The translations under genes were made by a program, and so were the position numbers. A stretch of DNA of 58,194 nucleotides, the filler included, from Sphacelaria rigidula (lineage: Eukaryota), in NCBI GenBank assembly GCA_964200075.2. It is 7 parts of 7 records of this genome, joined end to end, with 100 filler letters (N's around TTAATTAATTAA, not from the genome) between each part and the next. Parts side by side here need not be neighbours in the genome. Positions count along the whole stretch, not along the records: positions 33,315 to 41,542 come from CAXNAA020011852.1; 6 more parts are not named here. The stretch is one strand, 5' to 3'. Below, piece by piece: positions 24,987 to 41,542 of the stretch. Position 1 is the stretch's first letter. Each line of letters opens with the position of its first letter. Under the pieces are notes generated by a model that had not been told where the DNA came from, did no database searches, and saw nothing but the letters and a program-made list of their open reading frames with translations.

Positions 24987-26846
24987 CACAAAGGACGCGG
25001 GCGAGGAGCTTCCTCTCTGTCGTTGCTTCTCTGGTGATATCGTCATCGACACGCGTGTACACCGCATTCGTTAGGTGCACCTAGCCACAGCTGCTCAACT
25101 GCTGCGGACATATGGGAGGAGAAGGTGGCCTCGCTAGGTCGCTAGTGCGTCGCGTCTTCCCTGCAAAAGAAGAATGCCACTTCAACCCCATATTTTGTAT
25201 CAACCGCATTTTCTAGGATTCACTATTATATGTTGTCCAGATTCCAATGATGCAGCATAAAACATGCGTACATATTCCTCGTCTTCCATTTATATACGAG
25301 ATGAATGAAGTGTCCATATTTCCCACCAGTGCCCAGTACAAGAGCTGTGGTTAGTGCATACTGTGCATGTTAGAATAACTTGTGTCCGTAGCACTGTCCT
25401 TGCGATAGGCTAACTACCGTTCAGCGAACAGTAGTATGCAGAGGTTGCACCCTAGTTTTCAGACCAGTTGCGTCTGCAGCTCAGAATGAAATCGGTGAGA
25501 CAAATGGTTGATTGGGCTCTTCATTCGGCCAAGAAAAACAGGACGTATACTCTCCTCTCAAAACAGAGAACTGATGGTAGTGAAGAAGAGTGATCGTAAG
25601 GGGCAGTGAGGACCACCGATTACAGTTCTTTCAATCCTGGAACAGCAAACACAGCTCTACACGTACGTAGACTAAAACATATCCATGAATCTGACGCGAT
25701 GGTTTGCCAGCTCATAGACTGGATTCTTACTCAACCTACGACACCAACAAACACTGGCAGCACACTGACTTATCCCACGAGCTTACGTGGCAAGTCTGAC
25801 AAGATATTGAACTCGAGGATCCATATAGAAAACAGTACTTGCACCCTTGATCAACATTGGGAGCTCCTAGCTGAACCGGAACATGTTGTGCCGCTAGTTT
25901 GCTAGAGTAAAAACTCACGCACAGGGAAAAAGCAGCTAGACTGCTGGCTGTGTAAATTTCCAACAGTGCACTCTTCATTCGTGTGACATTACTTGGGGTG
26001 TACACATTACCCGTTCGTGATTCGTGCGGTACGACCTTGAACGTACAACTTTGAGCAATGCTACGGCAGGCGTACACGCTTTTCGCGAAATATTGTCTAG
26101 TTCAGGGGCTCTAGATGCACAAGAATATGGGTTAGGGCATCCCCGTTTGCAAATTCATTCGGGATATGCCCAGCACAGTGGAGTAGTAATCCTGGCGTAC
26201 TTTTACATATTTTCATAAGTGATGTTTTGCATGAGATCAAGCGCTCCTAACATTTCCAATCTCAGAAAATGTTTGTGCACCCTTACCGTAGTATCACTCC
26301 TCTACCGTTTGTGACCCGTACCGGATTGCTCTCGGGTATATGACAAGCATTCAGCATTCGTGGGGAGTCCAGTCATAGAATCTCTGGTTCGTCCGAACAG
26401 TGCCGTTCTGCATACTCATACTGAGGCAACGAAAAGGCTCCGACGTCGAGGTCTAAGTGAAAATCGCTGCACGTGCTGTTGTTCAGGGTTCAGATGGTGA
26501 TAACGACGTGTTGCACCTGGAAGAAAACGTTGGGCAAAAGTACGAATAACCCGCCGAGCAGAGGTGCCACGGTCGATCGGGGGGATGACTACGTTTGGCC
26601 AGCCCTCGGTGAATTGCCAGTAGAGCACACGGTTCAGCAGAAATAACAACCGCAACTCGACGAAAATTGGGTGGAGCGCGGCGCTAGGACCTCTGGACCT
26701 AACGGCCTTACGAAGTGCTCCGCAATAAAAACCAAAACCGTGCCAATCACTTGTCGTTCGAGACCCTTGATAATGTACGGAAGTACACACCAATACATAC
26801 CCCGAGCAATCTGAACAACGAGATTGCTACAAGGGATACGTGTCAA

Positions 26847-29326
26847 CTACCACGTATGAGATGCCCAAGGAGAAGGACTAGACGCTCCTAGCTCCAACTT
26901 TACGTTCGAATCCTTCCCTGCCTCTTTGAAAGCCACACCATCAAACATGCTCAGGCGTTTAGGTACCACTCGCGGCGAGCCCCAGAGCTGCCCCGTACTC
27001 CCACCACCACTGCTGATGAAGCTGCTCCTACCACCACCGCTGCTTCACCCATTCTAAGGGGCTGTGTGCTCGCAAAACTCCCTCACCCCATCGCCATCGT
27101 CTGTAGGAGAAGTGACTCTCAGCTCTACTTTCATTCCTGCTCCTGCTCTTGCCACCGAAGACATCTCATCATCTGCTCTAAAGGGTGAGTATTCCGGCAG
27201 CAACGGTGCCCTCGCATCCTGCCTCTCGCACACACCACGATGGGCATCAACACCATCGCTTAGGACAGAACCCGAGAATACTGTGCGCCTGCGTTTCGTT
27301 CCTTGCACGTCAGCAATGCTGCCCTAACCACCCAGCTTCGGTCTAACGCTGGGGATGCCCTCACCAGTGTTAAGATTCGCGGTGTCGGATATCGCAACTA
27401 TGTTGTGTGCAGAAGGATGTTGTCGGTCGGACGTTGCTCCATCAACATAGTTCTTGTAGATATCCCATTTGGAGCACCCCTCTTCACCCCACGTCTTGCT
27501 CACCGTACTCTCCATCCCCGCCCTGGCATGCTCAAAGCAGAACTCAGCCTTCTTGTTTTCAACTAAGCCATATGACGCCCGGATGAAGCAACATTCGTCA
27601 TCGCACTCGTCAACTTCACTCGCTACTTCTGCTGTGGCATGCTCGGAGCAGAACTGCACCGATTTGCTTCCCGCTACACACAAAGGAACACTGGGGCAGC
27701 CCTCGTCGCCGCGCTTATTCCTCACCACGCTCACCATTCCTGCCGTGGCATGCTTGGAGAGTAAAACCCCGCTTTGGTGCTACCCACTGCACCATACCAC
27801 GGTTGCGTGGAGCAACCCTCGTAGCGGCAGTTCTTTCTTCGTGCATTCCCCATCCTGCGCTGGCATGCCTAAGCAGCACTTTGCCTTCGTTCTACCTGCT
27901 ACACCATGCAATGCCTGTGTGAAGCAGCCTTCGTAGTCACACTTCTTGTTCTTCATATTTATCATTCCCGCCTGAGCATGCTTCAAGCAGAACTCCGCCG
28001 CTCTGCTTCCCGCTATCCCATACGATGGAGCCTTGGGGCAGCCCTCGTAGCCGCACCTTTTGTGTTTCACGTTCACCATTCCCGTCGTGGCATGTTTGGA
28101 GCAGAACTCCGCCTTCGCGCTTCCCGCTACCCCATACGACGGAGCCTCGGGGCAGCCCTCGTGGCCGCACTTTTTAGTTTTCACGTTTTCCATTCCCGTC
28201 GTGGCATGTTTGAAGCAGAACTCCGCCTCCGCGCTTCCCGTTACCCCATACGACGGAGCCTCGGGGCAGCCCTCGTGGCCGCACCTCTTGTTTGCCACAT
28301 TCACCATTCTAGACGTTGCATGCGTGAAGCAGAACTTCGCCGTTCTGCTTCCTGCTACACCATACGACGGAGCCTCCGGGCAGCCCTCGTAGCCGCACCT
28401 CTTGTTCTTCACACTCACCATTGCCGCCGTGGCATACTTGGAGCAGAACTCCGCCTTCGTGCTTCCCGCTAACCCATACGAAGGGACACTGGGGCAGTCC
28501 ACGTAGCGACACCTCCTCCTCACCACGCTCACCATTCCTGCCGTGGCATGCTTAGAGCAATACTCCGCTTTGGTGCTTCTCGCTGCGCCATACGACGGAT
28601 GCGTGGAGCAGCCCACGTAGCGACACTTTCTCCTACCACGTTCACCATTCCAGCCCTGGCATGCTTGACGCAGAACTCTACCTGATTGCTACCTGCTACA
28701 CCATACGATGGATGCGTGAAGCAACCCTCGTCGCTGCACTTCTTGCTTTTCACATTCACCATTCCTGCCCTGGCATACTTCCAGCAGACCTCCGCCACTC
28801 TGCTTCCCGCTATACCATACGACGGAAGCGTGGAGCAGCCCTCATAGCTGCACCTCTTGTTCACATTCACCATCCCCGCCATGGCATGCTTGAAGCAGAA
28901 CTCCACATTCGCGCTTGCCACTACACCATACGACGGATGCGCAGAGCAGCCCTCGTGGCCGCACCTATTGCTCGCTACATTTATCACTCCCGTCGTGACA
29001 TGTTCGTAGCAGAAATCTGCCTTTGCACCTTCGGCTACACAATGCGATGGATGCGTGGAGCAGTCCTCATAGCCGCACTTCTTGTTCCTCACATTCACCA
29101 TTCCCACCGTGGCATGCTTGGAGCAGAACTCTGACTCCGCGATTCCCGCCTCACCACATGATGGCTGCGTGGAGCAGCTCTCGTAGACGCAACTCTTTCT
29201 CGTCCCATTCACCATTCCCGCCGTGGCATGCTCGGGGCAGAACTCCGCCTGGCAGCCCTCTAACCCGTGGTATGGCGACTGGAGGTAGCCGTTGTCGAAG
29301 CCCTATTCGTTCGCGTGTCCGGCCAT
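26847..29326 (-). pseudogene. EsV-1-7-type cysteine-rich repeat gene (~16 x 38-aa C-x4-C-x16-C-x2-H units), disrupted
   Basis: Repeats such as CGHEGCPEAPSYGVAGSAKAEFCSKHATTGMVNVKHKR span ORFs 28529-29215, 27780-28616 and 27324-27737. Probable ATG at 29326 (MAGHANE) is followed by in-frame TAG at 29303-29305. A 1-nt deletion lies at ~28636, with further frameshifts at ~27870-27760 and ~27320. The tail frame continues through two stops (~27054, ~27045) to ...KDSNVKLELGASSPSPWASHTW*. No introns seen. Confidence 0.85.
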
Positions 29327-30243: not shown

Positions 30244-32079
30244 GTCACCCCGAGTACTGTTCGTTGTTGTCAATATGCTGTACAGTGTTCATGTTAAGCG
30301 CACATACAATATACTCCACCATACAGCATAGGCATGGTACTGGCAGAAAAAAACGGTCGAGACATGACAGTAGTAGATATTGAACTCACACTCCCGTGCT
30401 CGGGAGATCGCCGAGGTATCTATTGAACTGCCCTATTTGTTCTTATTTGCGGAGAAAGTATCGTACTTCTAATCAATATCAAGCAAAAACCTCCATAAAC
30501 AAAAGCATGATAGATAAGGTGATGTTTTCTAAACATCATTTGGTTTGTCTTATTGGTAGACACTGGACCACGAGATTTTCGTGAACTATGTGTATTCGTA
30601 TGCGAGGTATACACCACCATTTCAGCATCCACGCCTGAAGCCAAAGCGTCGTATCTAAGCTCAGGCCTGTGGACATACACCCGTGATCAGTGTTTGAGAT
30701 TCGTATTCAGCAAAAGCTGTTGAGAATTCTATCCTTTGGCCCATTTGATATATATATATATTGAGGGCCAAGAGGGTGAATTATTTTCAACAATCTTTGC
30801 TACATCTCGGATCCCACCCGCTGATTATGGTGCAGGGTGCGGAACTTCCATAGTTGAGGCTGTTCGCAACAAGTTCTCTTTGTGCCCAATTTCCGGATGA
30901 ATCAGCGGGCAAAGTGAGGATTTATTTCGAGCTTCTTCTCTTGTATATATTCCAAAGATACCAGTGTGTATCGGATTTGTGGAGCAGATGAAGCTGTTTA
31001 AAGAACATCTCATTTTTGCCCAATTTATTTCATTGGGCAATAAAAGGATCTACTTTGAAAAGCTTGTCTATGGCACTTGTGTAGCAGATGAAGCTGTTCA
31101 AGATATATCCTTTTTTTGCCCAATTGAACTGGATAAAAAAAATCTGTTTCGAACAGCTTCTTCTGCTGTTCGAAATAGTTCCTTTTTTTGCCCCATTGCC
31201 CAATTGGAAATCGGGCAAAAAGAGGAGGTATTTTGGATAGCTTCTCAAAATAAATAAATGTAAAATATTTGTGACAAATTAGCTTGGAATTAACAAATTG
31301 GGAGTGCTTCTCCAGAGGGTTGCTTACAGGGTCTCGAGAAAAATGCTACACAAAATGCTGGTAGAGGTACTAGGTTTTGCAAATGCTGTATCGGGGTTTT
31401 CACAAAGACTGCGAAGAACCCTGTGCAGCACGTCTTACAGCGTGCTATCTGTCCACGTGTGAAGATAAGGTGAGAACGAAAGTTGACATCCGAATCATAC
31501 CTGCAAGGATGGGGTAAAAGATTCGTATCACATCGGCTGTGGGAAGACCTAAAACCGCTGAGCTAAAACCCATCCAGGGCATTTTGGGCTATTCATTATT
31601 CTGCGGACTCTGTCAAACGTTATAGAAATGTTCGACTTTTGAAGTGACCGTATCCCCTCGTTGAACATTTTTTGTTTTTTTCAGATTGTTGAAAAAACAC
31701 ACACCGAGATGGTGAAGAAGGTCAGAACTGAAATAGAACGAAGCAGTAGCTTTGAAACAAGAACAATATATTCGCCACATCTGGTTTCACAGTTTTCATG
31801 CACACTCCGTCTACACGGCATCATATACGACGACAACGCCGAGACACTACAGGGACACGAGTTCATGCATCGGTACCGGCGGGGGAAAGGTTCACCAGAT
31901 TCGCACCGGTGTGAGAAGACATGTGCGGGTGCATGGTCTGGACCAGACTTTTGTGTTCATCTTCGTCCTGACCTTTCTTGGTTGCATGCCGTAGCAGTCG
32001 TGTCCCGGAGACGTTGACAAATGTATCGCAACCTGATCAGTATCATGGGGTGGAGATGGCAACTGCGAGATGCACTATC

Positions 32080-32294
32080 TGTAATGCGTGAGAGGACCGC
32101 GTGCGTAGAGGACCGCATCGGAATTTGAAGACCCTTGTGGTTAGAGTTAGAGTGGGTTAGGGTTAGTGTTGGGGTTACGGTCAGGGGCGTAGTACATGCA
32201 GGGACTGGCCCGATTTGTTTTGAAAAACGTCGATCCTGAGGTGTTTTGAACTACGGCGCGATCCTCTAAGCACGCGGTGCTCTCACGCATTACA
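32080..32294. mobile_element. MITE-like element with 37-bp inverted repeats enclosing degenerate telomere-like (TTAGGG) repeats
   Basis: tgtaatgcgtgagaggaccgcgtgcgtagaggaccgc (32080-32116) versus gcgatcctctaagcacgcggtgctctcacgcattaca (32258-32294), 3 mismatches. Interior ggttagagttagagtgggttagggttagtgttggggttacgg. Confidence 0.75.
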
Positions 32295-33214: not shown

Positions 33215-33314
33215 NNNNNNNNNNNNNNNNNNNNNNNNNNNNNNNNNNNNNNNNNNNNTTAATTAATTAANNNNNNNNNNNNNNNNNNNNNNNNNNNNNN
33301 NNNNNNNNNNNNNN
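33215..33314. other. Artificial contig linker
   Basis: 44N-TTAATTAATTAA-44N. Confidence 0.98.
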
Positions 33315-34123
33315 CCCCCCCTCCCCTTGTCCAAGAACAGAAAAGCAAATAAACAATTACTTCGTGTATACAAACTTATCATTGTTACAATGTACATACT
33401 CCCCTCTTGTCTAGAGAGCAGCCAACCAATCCCCCCTGCTGTCGACACGAAGAACACATCTAATGGCACACGCATATGAACCATCTACCCACAAGCACGC
33501 AATGATCACCCCTCGGGGGGATGTCCAACGTCGAAGCTACATTATGTTCGTGTGAACAGAGTCGTTCATACGGAAGATCACATACCGGACTTCCCAGCCT
33601 ACCTTTAGACAGCGCCGGTTTTCTTCTAGTCTGAAGCAGCAAGCAAGCACAGCTACAACACGCGCTCTTTCGTCACATGCTAAATCATCAACGGACTCAG
33701 ACGGTCACGAATAACAGTCATCTGTGAATAGCGCCCGTACGTCAGTATCTTTAGCAAAGTATATCGCATTCCGCGCCTCGACCGCGCACCAACCTCCAGG
33801 TACCACCTACCGTGAACAATGTTTTCGTGAGATTGAGGGTGGAGGATGCGATTGTAAGTTTTGGGAATCGGTCTATCAATGAATGAATGTTTTCAGTTCC
33901 GAAATGCCCCTACACGAGGCCCGATGCGCTTCTGCAGTAGCTTGCCACTGAACCCTAAGACGGTAATCGGTCACAAAATCTCTCTTCAAGGGAAGAACAG
34001 TGCCCTCCGCCATCAACATCACAGAGCTAACGCGTCACCATCGGCCTACGAATGATGTCGACCACCACCTTGGTCAAGAGTAGCAGCAATAATCTGTGTC
34101 GCAGTCAAGCCAGACAAATGGTG

Positions 34124-36088
34124 CTAGGAAAGGTCAACCTCTGGCTTCACATTTGTCCCACCTTCGCATATCAGAATGGCTGCGGTAGCCGCGCTACGGG
34201 CGACTTGTGCCGGATCTAGTTCACCAGTCGCACGGGGTAGTTTGGTTCTTCTTGTTGTGCTGCTCCTCGAAAGCACAGCCTGTTCGGATTGATGCATCTT
34301 GCGAATGGGTGACCGTCTTGGATATCCTCCATTACCAGTCGATTGTTGCCCAGCTATCTCTAGCTTCACTTTTTTCGAGCGACTCGCCGATTTCTCAAGC
34401 CGACGAGCTGCTGGTCGGGCGTGGTTTCCACGGCGCACGTTCACCATCCCGTCCTCAGCGTGCCGTGAGCAGTACTCTGCCTTCCCAATTCCCGCCAATC
34501 CAAACGACGGATGTTTGGAGCAGCCCTCCCTGGAACACATTTTGTGAAATAGGTTCACCATGGTGTCGTCCGCGTGCTGTGAGCAGAACTCCGCCTTCCT
34601 GCTTCCCGCCAGCCCAAACGACGAACGCTTGAAGCAGCCGTCGCGGGAGCACGTCTCGTGTTGAACGTTCACCATCCCGTCTTCGGCGTGCTGTGAGCAA
34701 AACTCCGCCTTTCTGCTTCCCGCCAACCCAAACGATGGCCGCTTGAAGCAGCCCTTCCTGCAGCACGCCTTGTGAACTACGTTCACCATCCCGTACTCGG
34801 CGTGCTCTGAGCAAAACTCCGCCTTCCTGCTTCCTGCCAACCCAAAAAACGACCGCTTAGAGCAGCCCTCCCTGCAGCAAATTTTGTGGATCATGTTCAC
34901 CATTCCGTCCTCGGCGTGCTCTGAGCAAAACTTCGCCTTCCTGCTCCCCACCAACCCAAACGATGGCTGCTTGGAGCAGCCATCGCGAGAGCACACCTCG
35001 TTTTTAACGTTCACCATCCCGTCCTCGGCGTGCTGGGAGCAGAACTCCCTTTTTCTGCTTCCCACGAGCCCAAACGACGGCTGCCTGGAGCAGCCCTCCA
35101 TGGAGCACATCCTATCCTTGACGTTCACCATCCCGTCCTCGGCGTGCTGGGAGCAGAACTCCCTTTTTCTGCTTCCCACCGGCCCATACGACGGCTGCTT
35201 GAAGCAGCCCTCCATGGAGCACATCCTATCCTTGACATTGATCATTCCGTCCTCGGCGTGCTGGGAGCAGAACTCCCTTTTTCTGCTCCCCACCACCCCA
35301 TACGACGGCTGTCTGGAGCAGCCCTCCATGGAGCACATTCCCACCGACCCAAACGACGGTATCTTGAGGCGTCCGTCGCGGGAGTACGTGTTGTATTCAA
35401 CATCACCTATCATGTCGGCGTGCTGCAAGCAGAAATCCCGCTTCCTGCTTCCTGCCAACCCAAATAATGGCTGCTTGGAGCAGCCCTCCATGGAGCACAT
35501 CTTGTCCCGAAGACCAATCACCTCGTCCTCGACGTGCTGTAAGTAGAACTCCGCCTTCCTGATTCCCGTCAACCCAAACGACGGCCGCTTGGAGCAGTTC
35601 TCAGTGGAGCACACCTTGTGTTGAACGTCTACCATCCTGTCTTCGGCGTGCTGTGAGCACAGCTTTCTTTTTCTGCTTTCCACCAGCGCAAACGACGGTA
35701 GCCCAGAGCAGCCAGCCCCGGAGCACATCCTGTCTCGAAGATCAATCATCCCGCCCTCGACGTGCTGAGAGCAGAAATCCGCCTTCCTGCTTTCCGCAGA
35801 CGCAAACGACGCCTGCTTACCCTCCATGGAGCACGTCTCGTGAATCACAGCCATCATCTCGTCCTCAGTGTGCTGTGCGCAGAACTCCGCCTTCCTGCTT
35901 CCTGCGGACCCAAACGATGGCCGCTTCGAGCAGCCCTCCCTGGAGCATGCCTCGTTTTCAACATTCACCATCCCGTCTTTGGCGTGCTGTGAGCACAGCT
36001 CTGTACTGTGACTGCTTTCCAAGCCGCGAGACCGCAGCTTCAGACATCCCTCGTGAGAGCACGTCCTGTTTTCGCGGCCTATCGTCAT
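34124..36088 (-). CDS. Intronless EsV-1-7-type cysteine-rich repeat protein (654 aa from ATG 36088): 14 full-length plus 1 partial 38-aa C-x4-C-x16-C-x2-H units and a basic C-terminal tail
   Basis: Uninterrupted ORF (frame open from at least 36109). Unit consensus CSxEGCSKxPSFGLxGSRKAEFCSQHAEDGMVNVxxxx matches the EsV-1-7 cysteine-rich motif known from Ectocarpus siliculosus virus-1 and expanded in brown algae (e.g. IMMEDIATE UPRIGHT). Array spans 34424-36061. Tail contains SRSKKVKLE and NVKPE. Confidence 0.9.
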   Translation of the reverse strand: MTIGRENRTCSHEGCLKLRSRGLESSHSTELCSQHAKDGMVNVENEACSREGCSKRPSFGSAGSRKAEFCAQHTEDEMMAVIHETCSMEGKQASFASAESRKADFCSQHVEGGMIDLRDRMCSGAGCSGLPSFALVESRKRKLCSQHAEDRMVDVQHKVCSTENCSKRPSFGLTGIRKAEFYLQHVEDEVIGLRDKMCSMEGCSKQPLFGLAGSRKRDFCLQHADMIGDVEYNTYSRDGRLKIPSFGSVGMCSMEGCSRQPSYGVVGSRKREFCSQHAEDGMINVKDRMCSMEGCFKQPSYGPVGSRKREFCSQHAEDGMVNVKDRMCSMEGCSRQPSFGLVGSRKREFCSQHAEDGMVNVKNEVCSRDGCSKQPSFGLVGSRKAKFCSEHAEDGMVNMIHKICCREGCSKRSFFGLAGSRKAEFCSEHAEYGMVNVVHKACCRKGCFKRPSFGLAGSRKAEFCSQHAEDGMVNVQHETCSRDGCFKRSSFGLAGSRKAEFCSQHADDTMVNLFHKMCSREGCSKHPSFGLAGIGKAEYCSRHAEDGMVNVRRGNHARPAARRLEKSASRSKKVKLEIAGQQSTGNGGYPRRSPIRKMHQSEQAVLSRSSTTRRTKLPRATGELDPAQVARSAATAAILICEGGTNVKPEVDLS

Positions 36089-38303
36089 TTTGAAGACTTT
36101 CAGCGACACGGCTACGTCTGCTGTAGGCGGTGAGGGCTGGGGCGAAATAACTCAAGTCCGCACTGCCCGTCTCACCGAGTTTTCCGCCGGAGCTGAAGAA
36201 CTAGCCCGAACAGTAGTCAACGATCGCCGTTTCGTCAAACATTTGCTGTCCAGGGTGACCTGCTCTGCCGGCTGTTACGTCGAGTTCTCCACCTGACAGT
36301 ATTGCAATAACGAAAGTACCATGGTATCATGGCAGTGATTGCGGTGAGTGGGAGGCGCAGTCACACAATAGCATCTGCAGTGCAGAAACGGAGGTAATTA
36401 CGAAAAGGGTGTGCAGCTTAGTTTGCGACCAAAGCAATCGATGCGTCCCCTCAACTGTTGACAAGAATGTGCACCAGAGTTTTGCATCCAACACCAACTT
36501 GTTGAGTCCAGCCCGAACTTCAAATGCCCCTCGTCTAACTTCATTGCGGATACTCATGAACTTGGGGTTAAGGCAAAGTGTCTTTTCTGCTTCCTGTAGA
36601 AGGTTGGACATACAACCGATCCAACCTGCCCTTTTTCTTTCCGTTCCTTTCGCCGGAAATACGGTCAACCGAGTTACTCCGGGAAAAATGGGCCCTCGGA
36701 TGGGGACAACAGCACTCAGGTGCAGCGCCTGCTCAGATCTGCTTGTTTTGTAACCGTTCGGACAGCAGGGGTGCCGGGACTTGATGAGAACCGCGAACAC
36801 GGTCGACTCCCGGATCACTTCGAGCACTGGCAAACAGATGGACGGTGCGGTAGCAAATGGTGTTTCGCTGTTTCAGAGCGCACCGTTTCGGAGCAAAAAA
36901 CAGGCATTATTTCCAACAAGTTGGTCCACGCGCGCTTGTCCACTATTTCCGACTGGATTCGATTGGATCTTTATGGTCTACATGTATACAAACCAACAGC
37001 TATACGACGTCGTGAATATAACGGGGTCTTCATCTTGAGTACACGAAGGTGTTATCATCTCCACCCTTACGCCACTTCCACCGACATATCGGGGACCACA
37101 ACAGGTGCGATGTTGTGCCCAATTGTTTCGGCTACTCCGGCGTGATGCCAACGCAGCGTTCTCCCCCAACCAGATGCACACATCCATGCCTCTACTGAAA
37201 AACGGCATCATAAAGGTGCCATCACCACACGGCCACAAGTCACACGCGCAAGCAAACCACCATGGGAGCAAACTTGATTTCGCAGGAGCTTCTTCTAGAC
37301 TTCCGCCCCGTACGCGCCTAGACTGCCGAAACGCATGTACTCGATTCATTTTGATCCATGCACGATGGCGGGATAGAAATCTGTGCGATATCATGCACAC
37401 GAAAAACGCAGTGATACGGGGGATCCATGCGACTTCCGAACCAAGTGCGCACGACGCATATTTTTGTTGGTACGTGAGACTCTGCGCTGTATCTACTCCG
37501 TAAGTCGCAACGTGTAAGTCTTCGGACTCATGCAGATGGTTCCTTACGTGAGAATACTCATAGATATGAATGCAATACCAGACCTCCCGTCAACCGAGTA
37601 ACCGCGCGAGCACTCGTTCGGATTCCAGCTTGTCTCTCTACACGTGAAGGAGTTAGGTCCTGGTAACCCATAAGGTCTCCGCAGATTTACAGGATAATCG
37701 TAGGAGTCCGCAGAACGCCTGTCGATTTTACCCATAATCTGTACATCTACAGCACTTCCACTGACAGGGTGTGCGTGTTTGGCCCACACTGCAGTCAAGT
37801 GATCAGTGATTGGGCTGTTGTACCACATCTTACCGGTTCACCGGTATTCACTCATATCCAGGAGTTATGCTGAACCTGACGATTTTATGCTACGCAAGGT
37901 ACACTTGAGTCAAATCGGTTGGATTCATTATTCGCAATTGAATGAATCAAGTACGGGGCGGCAGTGCATTCGGAGGGTGAGTTTTGGTTCCACACGGGGA
38001 GGAGCAAAATATACGAGGTTGCCCATGACGCCATAACTCGACACCCGCGGGGATTATAAGGGTTGTCAGGTTCAGTCGATTGCCGTGACGAGGGCAATTT
38101 CTTGAGAGGCACTGATGCATAATTCTCGCATCAAAGCCCACATGTACTCGTTCTGTCTGCAAAAGGAACAGTCTGGTCGCGCTACTTGAGGCAAAGAGGG
38201 GTTACCCTGAATTTTGGCACGTGGAATGAAAAGAAAGTAAGAACATGAACATTTGAGGAGAGGCACGCATTCATCATATCGAGGTCATCATTGGAGTACT
38301 AGT

Positions 38304-39013
38304 GTGTGTTGTCGTCCTCTGGACGCCAGTCTACACCACTCGGTATATGTGGGCGCACCAGCCGGGGTCACACAGGAGGACGGCCAACACAGGAGTTTTT
38401 TTATGGTTTGTTTAAGTTCTCCACCTTCTGCGGTGTGTGTTGTGTGTTGTCATCCCATCTATTCTGGACACCGGTCTACACCTTTCGGTATATGTGGGCA
38501 TACCGGCCGGGGTCACACAGGAGGAAGGTCAAGACTGGTTCTTTTTTATTTATTTTTATTTGCTGTAATACCCCTTCTTCCTTCTGCGGTGTTTGCCTTT
38601 TATTTTTGATCGCGAGAGGGGTTCAGCTGCCCCTTTCCCTCGTCGACCGTTGAGTCGAATTTTGTGTGCCCACGACATAGTCGCTCTCCACTGTCGGGCA
38701 TGGTGTGGGAAAAACTCCCAGATCGCTCCAAGAATTGAACCCACGACCCGATCGTCTGAAGGTTCCGAGGTTACCAACTGAGCCACCGGGGCGACCGGTG
38801 CTTGCCTTTTACTTTTTATCACGAAAGGGGTTCAGCACTCCCTTTCCCTCGTCGATAATCAAGTCGAATTCTGTGTACCCACGACATAGCCGCTCTCCAA
38901 TGCTGGGAATTGTGTGAGGAAAAAAACCGAGATCGCTCCGAGATTCGAACACACGACCCAACCGCCAGAAGGTTTCGAGGTTACCGACTGAGCCAGCCAC
39001 CGGGGCGACCGGC
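38304..39013 (-). mobile_element. Tandem/nested tRNA-derived SINE copies (family 1)
   Basis: Two tRNA-like heads ending at ~39013 and ~38799 (gccggtcgccccggtggctcag..ggt; ggttc.a.tc), one full body (~38444-38799) and a duplicated 3' part (~38304-38435). Confidence 0.82.
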
Positions 39014-41149
39014 TTTACATGGTGTGTGAAATATTGAAAGCGCCCTGACGACGCATCATAGCGCTCGGTGCACTTGAGGTTGGCTGTAAGCTTGCAGGCA
39101 ACCTACTTGTGATACTCTGTGCTGCTCTTTGTCCTATTCGCGCCGGAGACACTTTTTAGAGTCAAGCAGGGGGACCAGCCCTTGGTGTAGGGCACGCCCA
39201 CCGCGTTCCACGGTTAAGCTGCTCCTGAGAATGCGATCGTGTAAAACGTTACTAGGATGATCATTTTTCAGTATCCGTAGCATCATAATCGCCATGATTC
39301 ACACCCTGAAAACCGGTTTCATGGAAAGCCCTACTACCGGGCACCATATGCTCCTAATAGGACAGGTCTTGGATCCTTGATGCCGGTGCCGCAACAACCA
39401 CAAACACCATCGAGCAGAGCCACCGCTGGAGGGGATAAGGTTCATTCTTATCGATACTGTTTTCTCGGAGACCTCTCAATTTTTCAGACATCTGAGACTC
39501 TGCGTTCGGGTGTCTCCGACAGTGAAGCAGCTTGATATTTCTCCGAACATTCTTTTTTGGACAGGTGTGGAAATTCAGGACCGCAGTCCAGCACTTCCAG
39601 GAGCTGCCCTGTGTGTACACCGTGGCGCCCAACAGCTTTCGAGTAGTCATCTCATGTCCGAAATTTTCGAAGATCTCTGGAAAAAACAGTGTCGATAATG
39701 ATGGGCGTAGTCTAATACAAAAGCCCAACTTTAAAGGTTGTACAGCTCGTCAGACCACCACAAGAAGTATGTCAGCATAACGAGAAGGAGCCGTCGCATC
39801 CACCGACACGCACGGGCAGACAAGACAACAAGCAGGGTACCCTTGACGAACGATGCTACACTAGGAAGCAGGCTAGTAGGGGAGTGGCGTTCATTCCGGC
39901 ACGTTCCGTCTAGCTATGCCCCTCCCGCAGCACCCGCACACCCGGCTGCTTCTGCGAGCAAGGCAGCCAGCCGCACAGCAGGCAACACAGGGGCAACTCT
40001 CAACGCGCCAACGGCGCAGTAGTATCTGGCCGGCGCAGAGGGTGTGGGGCGAAGCTCATGCCCCCAGTCAATTTGGGTACAACGCGAAAGTACCGTGGTA
40101 TATGTGCATCACACCGTACAGAATACACAAGGGTACAGGGAGATCCGCCAAAAATACAGTAAAGAAACGCCTACTGGTCATGAACAACCGCAAGAATACA
40201 GGTGGGGAGTTGAGATCGCCTTGTAAGCACGAACGTATTCGGATGATCCTCATGTTCATCGGCTCGTCGTGCATGACAAGCTTCATCTCCGTATGGTCAA
40301 GGTCCCGCATGCGTGAAAATTGCGGCACTTTTGAAATTGGAGGATGGTCAAGAGATGGAACGTACGCGAAAAAGCATCATGCTTCAAGGCCCTCTGTTTA
40401 ACCACGCACGCGGTCATACGCAACAAATACCGAAGACACGCGCGCAGTTCCTGCAGATATATTTTGAGCAAAAAAGACAAGTTTCACCGTTTCTTAGAGC
40501 ACAAAAATCTGCCCACGAAAATCCATCGCCGTGGTCCGCGGTGTCTGGATACTTTCCCCGGAGGCTGATAGAAGCATACGCTATGCTAAGGAGGTCAAAG
40601 ACTCGAACCTCTGAATTGATTCCCGCCCCTAGAGGGGAATTTCAACTCTTGGACACTCAAAAATTGCGAACTATGCAGCACTTCGTGGTGAAGACCTCAG
40701 AATGGTCAATATGCCCTCTTCTAATTTTTCCCTGCCTAGAGCGACGATTCAAGATATGGATATTCCTGGGGGCATGGGAATCATATACGTTGACTGTACG
40801 TGTTTCCTCCAGCGACTTCAGTTTTCACCGAGCTATCGTCGTTTTTGCCCAGGAGTCAGTTAGCATTGCCCACACCAAAATGTCAGCGCTACCGGACAAC
40901 GACGCAGCTAAGTTGAGTCTTGCACCCAACCTCCCCATACCCCCTACCCGAAGCTTGGAGGCCATGATTGGTGTGTCTGCACAGCGCGAAGTTATGGGGG
41001 TCCCCCAATGACTTATAAGAGCGCGGCCCGCAATCTGAGTCGGCTGCACGGTTGCAGTAAGTCGACTCGTGCTTTGCTGCTGTTCAAGCTGTTTGCCCCG
41101 GAGGCATGTTTTTGGTATGTCTTGTAGAAACCTTTCCCCTATGCTTGGC

Positions 41150-41542
41150 CTGTTTAGGCAAAAACTCGGCATGCTCCATCCCGGCTTTGTAGGGACGGAC
41201 CTATTACGCGATTGACGTCGGTTTTCAATGACGCTGGAAGGCACGCCACTCACTACCTAAGCTAGGCAACCAGGTAAGTGTTTTGTTTTGCGCGCTTGAG
41301 TTTCACTTGCGGTAACGATTATGGTGGTCAAGCTAGATAGTTTTTTTCGGAAAACCTCAAGTCCGCGCAAACGGTGACGATCACATTATGTAGTGTATAA
41401 GTGGTGAGACACCCATGACGCAGTGTGTAAGCCATGACTGTCTCTGAAAGTGGCATTACCAGAAAATGAAGCAACTCATTGGAGGCTGTCATCCAAATGC
41501 AAGATAATCGGTAAGCTTCGGGAGGGGGGTACTCACGATCAT
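41150..41542. repeat. High-copy non-coding interspersed repeat (G/C-tract family)
   Basis: aaaactcggcatgctccatcccggctttgtaggga...cacgccactcact...gctaggcaacc...ggtgagacaccc...atgcaagataa is shared with 57670-58194 and, reversed, with 8330-8400. Confidence 0.8.

What the first reader, a model, noticed from the sequence alone, without database searches (positions are those of the whole stretch)
34124..34423. Shared effector-like tail: basic NLS-like patches plus two psi-K-x-E (SUMO consensus) motifs in both EsV-1-7 genes
Seen: the intact gene ends ...SRSKKVKLEI...TRRTK...GTNVKPEVDLS*. The pseudogene tail, read through two in-frame stops, has TKRRRTV...AGMKVELRV...PKRL...DSNVKLELG. The tails are otherwise unalignable by eye, yet each retains two psi-K-x-E motifs, the last as NVKxE near the C-terminus. 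Known: paired psi-K-x-E sites are SUMO acceptors typical of transcriptional repression modules. Inference: recognition array + NLS + SUMO tail parallels KRAB-ZFP architecture.
Basis: partly seen in the sequence, partly recalled or inferred. Interest (0 to 1): 0.7.

Follow-up and report, generated by a model that had tools for sequence, protein, structure and literature searches.

The report
SUMO-site tails on algal zinc-repeat proteins
A large brown-algal family of zinc-repeat proteins of unknown function keeps SUMO-attachment sites, and often a nuclear-import signal, in otherwise drifting tails, placed where giant-virus relatives carry a DNA-cutting domain, which suggests virus-derived DNA-targeting arrays turned into host gene regulators.

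Summary
The motif observation is real and family-wide. The intact gene (675 aa open frame, EsV-1-7 array) ends with VKLE and VKPE; the broken copy has MKVE and VKLE. In 79 paralogous tails from this genome psi-K-x-E occurs 134 times against 10.2 in shuffles, and 60 of 79 have two or more. In the largest tail family the tail drifts (omega about 0.75), yet the K and E of both motifs and a K-R-K basic patch are 7 of the 9 least-changed columns. All 13 intact tails of the focal gene's family keep both sites. The excess holds across 111 unrelated segment clusters (52 vs 9). It is absent from 86 nuclease-bearing homologues and from 20 FNIP genes. Those 86 homologues, mostly giant-virus-like, end in a Vsr/EDxHD-type nuclease fold instead. 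SUMO and Ubc9 exons are in the genome. Best reading: nuclear, probably DNA-binding zinc arrays with SUMO-acceptor tails, probably repressive. SUMOylation, DNA binding and repression are not shown. It is not a KRAB-ZFP. TRRTK and PKRL are not conserved, and the two genes lie on different contigs.

The parts
34124..36151 (-). Intact single open frame of the EsV-1-7 gene (675 aa stop to stop; first ATG at 36088 gives 654 aa)
   Evidence: Pfam PF19114 E 1.4e-196, 14 stretches
34436..36061 (-). Tandem EsV-1-7 repeat array, 38-aa period, C-x4-C-x16-C-x2-H
34124..34435 (-). Non-repeat C-terminal tail, 103 aa plus stop (tail family C, 13 intact members found in G000)
34358..34369 (-). psi-K-x-E site 1, VKLE (K596 in stop-to-stop numbering); K, L and E invariant in 13 of 13 family members
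34364..34375 (-). Basic patch KKVK, K-[KR]-x-[KR] NLS-like, overlapping site 1; pattern kept in 10 of 13 members
   Evidence: (counted by eye on the printed alignment)
34139..34150 (-). psi-K-x-E site 2, VKPE (K669); K and E invariant in 13 of 13, x is S, P or A
34241..34255 (-). TRRTK, proposed NLS patch; not conserved in the family
26845..29302 (-). Broken EsV-1-7 copy on another contig (frame changes in the array; stops at 27782, 27326, 27056, 27047), tail family A
27285..27296 (-). KRRR, the family-A basic patch (K-R-K columns among the least changed)
27123..27134 (-). MKVE, family-A site 1 in the broken copy
26892..26903 (-). VKLE, family-A site 2 in the broken copy
33215..33314 (.). Artificial 100-base linker between contigs C11851 and C11852; the two genes are not shown to be neighbours

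Best explanation
The gene encodes a nuclear protein whose tandem Cys3His repeat array binds nucleic acid, most likely DNA, and whose low-complexity tail carries SUMO-acceptor lysines (psi-K-x-E) that Ubc9 modifies. SUMO on the tail would recruit SIM-bearing chromatin factors and dampen or silence the bound loci. The array descends from the targeting part of giant-virus array-plus-nuclease proteins; in the alga the nuclease is absent and a disordered tail with an import signal and SUMO sites stands in its place. Shown: motif excess, selection on K/E and on a basic patch, nuclease fold in homologues, SUMO and Ubc9 exons in the genome. Inferred: SUMO conjugation (about 0.8), DNA binding (about 0.65), repression as the output (about 0.5), direction virus to host.
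For: 134 motifs vs 10.2 +/- 3.2 in 79 tails, maximum 24 in 2000 shuffles; psi-K-x-E has the highest ratio of 400 psi-a-x-b patterns, psi-R-x-E is not enriched (13 vs 16.3). One representative per cluster, 111 clusters: 52.4 vs 8.7 +/- 2.9. Family A, 53 tails: tail omega about 0.75; motif K/E omega 0.05-0.21; other K columns 0.75-0.98 (outside the basic patch), other E columns 0.36-1.2; psi swaps among M/I/V. Family C: 4 of 8 invariant columns in 103 are the motif K and E. Negative controls: 86 nuclease-type tails 27 vs 30.3; repeat arrays 15 vs 57.6; other five frames 0-16 vs 134; FNIP ORFs 1 vs 4.0. K-[KR]-x-[KR] in 62 of 79 tails vs 13. Nuclease-type homologue folds with pLDDT 86; best matches Vsr (Z 8.1, rmsd 3.1, 106 aligned) and homing endonuclease I-Bth0305I (Z 8.0, rmsd 3.2, 96 aligned). 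Repeats carry net charge +2.9 with variable polar positions. An Ectocarpus mariner transposase has an N-terminal EsV-1-7 domain (PMC12477816, passage). SUMO and Ubc9 exons in G000.
Against: No experiment on conjugation, localisation, binding or repression. Paired sites are mostly a feature of this genome's families: outside it 46 of 96 non-nuclease tails have one or more sites, only 8 of 96 two or more, and 60 of 119 proteins have none outside the repeats. Positions +4 and +6 are hydrophobic in 48% and 54% of sites vs 19% background, which plain SUMO recognition does not require. Variable repeat positions 9, 35, 36 have omega 1.0-1.2 with intervals reaching 1.0, so no clear diversifying selection. 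Z near 8 is at the level the tool calls common. Cys3His fingers often bind RNA (recalled). H3K9, H3K27 and DNA methylation are largely absent in brown algae (PMC13076208, passages), so the animal-type output is missing.
Confidence: 0.5

Rival explanations
1. The sites are true SUMO acceptors, but SUMO controls the proteins' own turnover, solubility or nuclear-body location, or tempers an activator, rather than recruiting a corepressor.
For: All motif statistics speak to SUMO acceptance, not to its outcome; site 1 of the focal gene overlaps its basic patch, which would suit control of import.
Against: Two sites at a near-fixed 65-85 aa spacing in 56 of 60 multi-site tails recall paired synergy-control sites of DNA-bound regulators (recalled); no conserved acidic or aromatic activation block is evident in the family A or C alignments (by eye).
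Confidence: 0.2
2. The tail sites are SUMO acceptors but the array binds RNA or proteins (for example viral or host proteins) rather than DNA, so the family is not a set of transcription regulators.
For: Cys3His ligand set; no solved relative of the repeat by profile; an earlier scan note reports a single repeat fused to viral RPB2 (e1-5558943, unchecked).
Against: 86 of 222 homologues fuse the array to a nuclease-type domain with E-x-D-E-x(1-3)-H in 84 of 86 and a Vsr-like fold; transposase fusion (PMC12477816, passage); basic repeats.
Confidence: 0.15
3. V-K-x-E-psi-x-psi is an unmodified docking strand for an unknown partner (EAR/LxLxL-like or PxVxL-like), and the match to the SUMO consensus is secondary.
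For: Hydrophobic residues alternate at 0, +4, +6 across unrelated clusters; VKLELGV resembles LxLxL repression motifs (recalled).
Against: K and E are the most constrained positions and x is free (T, V, A, S, L, R); K-to-R is seen in only 2 of 53 at site 1 and 0 of 53 at site 2; EAR and PxVxL motifs fix the hydrophobic residues instead (recalled).
Confidence: 0.12
4. The motifs are neutral relics inherited through recent duplication, or a compositional accident.
For: 66 of 79 tails fall in one BLAST cluster at E 1e-4.
Against: Excess remains with one sequence per cluster; site-specific omega 0.05-0.21 in a tail at 0.75; synonymous codon changes at the invariant K and E; frame-specific.
Confidence: 0.03

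Closest known systems
EsV-1-7 cysteine-rich repeat family (Pfam PF19114; Ectocarpus IMMEDIATE UPRIGHT)
   Same: Same repeat; large, lineage-expanded brown-algal family described as a possible new zinc finger and developmental regulator (10.1101/2024.02.19.579948 and 10.64898/2026.04.27.720984, passages).
   Different: The passages read describe no function for the non-repeat parts; neither text holds 'SUMO' or 'KRAB'. This genome's genes carry long single-frame arrays (median 14, up to 28 repeats in 73 closed ORFs).
KRAB zinc-finger proteins and other tandem-ZFP repressors
   Same: Many paralogues, long variable zinc-repeat arrays, a small attached effector part, broken copies; SUMO takes part in the silencing route (recalled: on KAP1).
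   Different: No KRAB domain, Cys3His 38-aa repeat rather than C2H2, effector is a linear motif at the C-terminus, SUMO would sit on the array protein itself, no clear positive selection at variable positions, no H3K9me3 output in most brown algae.
SUMO-dependent repression / synergy-control motifs of transcription factors (psi-K-x-E in disordered regions; recalled)
   Same: psi-K-x-E in low-complexity sequence, often paired, K and E fixed.
   Different: Here V dominates psi (42 of 52 weighted sites) and hydrophobic residues follow at +4/+6; host protein family is virus-related.
Vsr-like EDxHD homing endonucleases (I-Bth0305I, PDB 3r3p; PMC3239194, abstract) and giant-virus EsV-1-7 array nucleases
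   Same: The viral-type homologues have repeats followed by a C-terminal Vsr-like nuclease fold.
   Different: The algal genes examined have no nuclease domain (0 hits among ORFs of 93 loci); the tail is unrelated to it.

Membership tests
EsV-1-7 family (PF19114) | Tandem PF19114 repeats above the curated cut-off | tested here: met
   636 bits vs cut-off 25, 14 stretches
Canonical SUMO acceptor site | psi-K-x-E consensus above chance | tested here: met
Canonical SUMO acceptor site | Selective constraint on K and E with free x | tested here: met
   x at family-A site 1 is itself fairly conserved (V in 48 of 53)
Canonical SUMO acceptor site | Located in an unstructured, accessible region | tested here: inconclusive
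   Composition rich in G, S, A, R and near-neutral drift; no disorder predictor or fold of the tail was run
Canonical SUMO acceptor site | SUMO and Ubc9 encoded by the organism | tested here: met
   Exons matching SUMO and UBC9 (best E 1.5e-15, next E2 class 2.8e-6); full genes not assembled
Canonical SUMO acceptor site | Covalent SUMO conjugation at the lysine | not testable with these tools
   needs assay or proteomics
KRAB-ZFP | N-terminal KRAB domain | tested here: not met
   No KRAB hit in the Pfam scan of P0001; the array starts about 10 aa after the first Met
KRAB-ZFP | C2H2 zinc fingers | tested here: not met
   Repeat is C-x4-C-x16-C-x2-H, 38 aa; no C2H2 Pfam hit
KRAB-ZFP | Positive selection at DNA-contact residues between paralogues | tested here: inconclusive
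   omega 1.09 (0.92-1.29), 1.02 (0.85-1.22), 1.16 (1.00-1.36) at positions 9, 35, 36
KRAB-ZFP | Sequence-specific binding to transposons and corepressor recruitment | not testable with these tools
   needs DAP-seq/ChIP and interaction data
Giant-virus EsV-1-7 array nuclease (Vsr/EDxHD-like) | C-terminal nuclease domain with E-x-D-E-x-x-H | tested here: not met
   Nuclease profile hits 86 of 223 proteins but not P0001 nor any ORF of the 93 G000 loci
Classical monopartite NLS | K-[KR]-x-[KR] conserved in the tail | tested here: met
   62 of 79 tails vs 13 expected; family-A K-R-K omega 0-0.26; import itself untested

The most novel reading that the evidence does not exclude
Brown algae, which have lost PRC2, DNA methylation and most H3K9 methylation, built their own counterpart of the KRAB-ZFP system from a giant-virus selfish nuclease: the DNA-targeting repeat array was kept and multiplied into hundreds of specificities, the nuclease was replaced, possibly more than once, by disordered tails with SUMO sites, and the SUMOylated proteins guide silencing (perhaps DOT1/H3K79 methylation) to transposons, endogenous viruses or stage-specific genes.
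Probability: 0.22. Interest if true: 0.92.

Novelty: new variant of a known kind. Interest (0 to 1): 0.68.

Why it matters
EsV-1-7 proteins form the largest orthogroup of brown algae and include the developmental regulator IMM (10.64898/2026.04.27.720984, passages), yet their molecular function is open. A conserved SUMO-acceptor plus import signal gives a concrete, residue-level handle: two lysines per protein to mutate. It also offers a candidate for the sequence-specific guide that brown-algal silencing needs after the loss of PRC2 and DNA methylation (PMC13076208, passages), and a case of convergence with animal tandem zinc-finger repressors from a viral nuclease-targeting module.

Tried and rejected
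Single-sequence fold of four focal repeats failed (pLDDT 34.5) and was not used. A profile of 70 diverse repeats found no solved relative (best E 0.75); the fold search of the whole viral-type model barely tested the repeat part, so the repeat fold is unassigned. ESM Atlas without PF19114 clusters gave no usable hit for the array. The precomputed zf-MIZ label on P0030 is not a SUMO-ligase fusion: the sequence shows only repeats there (by eye). Searches of G000 for zf-MIZ and KRAB found nothing, but nothing rang in the controls either, so they show no absence; Ulp/SENP hits were weak (best E 5.8e-5). No RNA holder on record was listed; three runs guessed as RNA have no cover at 36340-38264 and 39090-41014 where a DNA-like run goes on, at most a weak hint, and X1 and X8 look like one data set. 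Transposon-cargo or retrocopy origin: flanks of the focal gene match paralogues at only 67-74% over up to about 1.9 kb upstream and 0.7 kb downstream and no terminal inverted repeats flank the gene, which fits old segmental duplication. Twenty other long ORFs of the window have no Pfam hit. The original IMM paper was not held. Complex prediction was not used: Ubc9 with a consensus peptide is a textbook pair. No proteome-wide background for psi-K-x-E in brown-algal nuclear proteins could be computed.

Full report
Observation. The window holds an intact open frame at 34124-36151 on the minus strand (675 aa stop to stop, first ATG at 36088) with 14 Pfam PF19114 stretches, followed by a 103-aa tail (34124-34435). 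The tail has VKLE at 34358-34369 and VKPE at 34139-34150; a broken copy at about 26845-29302 has MKVE and VKLE. The window is a string of unrelated contigs joined by 100-base linkers: the intact gene is on G000 C11852, the broken copy on C11851, so their nearness means nothing. The broken copy has stops at 27782, 27326, 27056 and 27047 and frame changes in its array; its tail is 45-49% identical to a large tail family of this genome, so its motifs are inherited.

Is it more than chance? A family search of G000 gave 4575 first-look repeat candidates, of which 150 were scored. These fell in 93 loci, all fetched; the set is biased towards canonical repeats. I dropped 14 loci (9 open at the 3' end, 5 with tails under 60 aa), leaving 79 tails. 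They hold 134 psi-K-x-E motifs against 10.2 +/- 3.2 in 2000 shuffles (maximum 24); 60 of 79 have two or more, 13 one, 6 none. Spacing between the last two sites is 65-85 aa in 56 of 60, and the last site lies within 35 aa of the end in 67 of 73. psi-R-x-E is not enriched (13 vs 16.3); psi-K-x-D (27 vs 7.5) and inverted E-x-K-psi (22) are also present, partly through relatedness. Most tails are related (66 of 79 in one cluster at E 1e-4), so relatedness had to be removed.

Independence. From 222 homologues I set aside 17 labelled Sphacelaria rigidula, whose tails resemble this genome's families. Among the 119 remaining proteins without a nuclease domain, 96 tails of 40 aa or more hold 55 motifs against 7.5 +/- 2.7, and 50 heads hold 13 against 3.6; 46 of 96 tails have at least one site but only 8 have two, and 59 of 119 proteins have a site outside the repeats. 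Ten tails labelled Ascophyllum, Pylaiella, Scytosiphon, Laminaria and Hapterophycus give 6 against 0.6; Ectocarpus gives 4 against 1.2 in 10 tails and 7 against 1.8 in 14 mostly related heads. Many unlabelled proteins are of unknown origin. With 230 segments collapsed to 111 clusters and one drawn per cluster, the count is 52.4 against 8.7 +/- 2.9, in 43 of 111 clusters against 8; psi-K-x-E is by far the top of 400 patterns (z 14.5, next 3.4); psi is V in 42 of 52, x is free, and +4 and +6 are hydrophobic in 48% and 54% against 19%. So one site is family-wide; the pair is mainly a feature of this genome's families.

Controls. Tails of 86 nuclease-bearing homologues: 27 against 30.3. Repeat arrays of G000: 15 against 57.6. 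The five other reading frames of the tail DNA: 0-16 against 134. Twenty ORFs of the FNIP family, another putatively virus-derived repeat family in this genome: 1 against 4.0.

Selection. In tail family A (53 of 59 tails long enough; median pairwise identity about 39%) parsimony counts on a tree give omega about 0.75 over 208 columns. The least-changed columns are R and K of the K-R-K patch (0, 0.10, 0.26) and the K and E of both motifs (0.16, 0.05, 0.05, 0.21): 7 of the top 9. Other K columns give 0.75-0.98 and other E columns 0.36-1.2. These are rough estimates and depend on the alignment. The focal gene's family C has 15 matches, 13 intact; all 13 keep both sites at median identity 53%, and 4 of the 8 invariant columns in 103 are the motif K and E, with synonymous codon changes. 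KKVK-like patches persist in 10 of 13; TRRTK does not, nor does PKRL in family A. Families A and B are homologous (hhalign 96%); A and C align only weakly (9.9%, mostly through motifs and spacing), so deep homology and convergence both remain open.

What the array is. The repeat is C-x4-C-x16-C-x2-H with a 38-aa period and net charge +2.9; positions 3, 9, 35, 36, 38 are highly variable (1246 canonical repeats). Omega at 9, 35, 36 is 1.0-1.2 with intervals reaching 1.0 (286 pairs): relaxed, not clearly diversifying. In 86 of 222 homologues the array is followed by a conserved domain with E-x-D-E-x(1-3)-H in 84; the Atlas places its look-alikes in Nucleocytoviricota. A model of one such protein (pLDDT 86) matches Vsr (Z 8.1, rmsd 3.1, 106 aligned) and the homing endonuclease I-Bth0305I (Z 8.0, rmsd 3.2, 96 aligned), with nearly all further rows being PD-(D/E)xK nucleases or RAP-like domains; the Z values alone are middling. 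Viral matches named Endonuclease appear. No ORF of the 93 loci has this domain. An Ectocarpus mariner transposase carries an N-terminal EsV-1-7 domain (PMC12477816, passage). This points to DNA targeting by the array but does not show it. Earlier scan notes reached the same view of the viral proteins; they are not independent evidence.

Machinery and expression. G000 has an exon matching SUMO (C1675) and exons matching UBC9 (C2780). Contigs of three runs guessed, not recorded, as RNA cover the tail and last repeat in one piece without differences (33891-34601); DNA in those runs cannot be excluded.

Mechanism. Most likely the protein enters the nucleus, binds DNA through its array, is SUMOylated by Ubc9 at the two tail lysines, and thereby recruits SIM-bearing chromatin factors that dampen the bound loci (0.5). 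Rivals: SUMO governs turnover or location (0.2); the array binds RNA or protein (0.15); the motif is an unmodified docking strand (0.12); chance (0.03). That psi-K-x-E is the Ubc9 recognition site and that such sites often repress is recalled knowledge.

Comparison and novelty. It is a member of the EsV-1-7 family and not a KRAB-ZFP (no KRAB, no C2H2); it may work like one. KRAB-ZFP features were taken from passages of PMC4592553. Brown algae lack PRC2 and DNA methyltransferases, mostly lack H3K9 methylation and use H3K79 methylation for repression (PMC13076208, passages), so any silencing output must differ from the animal one. A full-text search for 'EsV-1-7' found 11 papers and none held both 'EsV-1-7' and 'SUMO'; word searches in the two main preprints found neither 'SUMO' nor 'KRAB' (passages only, supplements closed). 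The original IMM paper (Macaisne 2017) was not held, and subscription papers are not searched, so prior mention cannot be excluded. Other papers seen: PMC12993054 and 10.1101/299784 (passages), PMC3239194 (abstract and outline).

Verdict. Observation confirmed and extended to the family; interpretation partly supported. New variant of a known kind; interest 0.68.

Noticed in passing
window 8230, 16559, 24887, 33215, 41543, 49869: 100-base linkers (N runs around a six-frame stop spacer) join unrelated contigs of about 8.2 kb sorted by length; neighbourhood across them is artificial.
   Followed up: yes
tails and heads of non-nuclease homologues: The motif extends to V-K-x-E-psi-x-psi: hydrophobic residues at +4 and +6 in about half of unrelated sites, perhaps a lineage-specific SUMO-site extension or a reader/E3 docking strand.
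   Followed up: partly
P0022, P0093, P0123, P0145, P0162, P0189 (Ectocarpus-labelled): Where the array is C-terminal, V-K-[EK]-E sites with acidic followers sit in the N-terminal disordered part instead.
   Followed up: partly
repeat unit, e.g. window 34436-36061: Cys3His spacing C-x4-C-x16-C-x2-H equals that recalled for the first zinc site of the plant SBP DNA-binding domain; one homologue (P0016) had a weak SBP hit (E 0.02, below cut-off); no solved SBP chain matched the repeat profile.
   Followed up: partly
fold search: Ectocarpus virus EsV-1-115 aligns to the array-plus-nuclease model over 487 columns, EsV-1-7 itself over only 241, so the namesake protein may lack the nuclease while another gene of that virus has it.
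   Followed up: no
window 30983-31244 and 32080-32294: Cluster of nested 33-37 nt inverted repeats, and a 46-nt inverted pair at 85%, possibly small foldback elements.
   Followed up: no
window 38265-39089 and 41015-41542: Very high-copy repeats by summed contig depth.
   Followed up: no
G000, L163-L192: A large family of long single-frame FNIP-repeat genes (822 first-look candidates; 20 contigs examined), without SUMO-type tails.
   Followed up: partly
G000 C2780 and C27108 (L157, L160-L162): Two loci with Ubc9-like exons; only C2780 was checked against solved structures.
   Followed up: partly
G000 C20944 and C16901 (L128, L129): Long frames (516 and 456 aa) each with two tandem SUMO/ubiquitin-like domain hits.
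   Followed up: no
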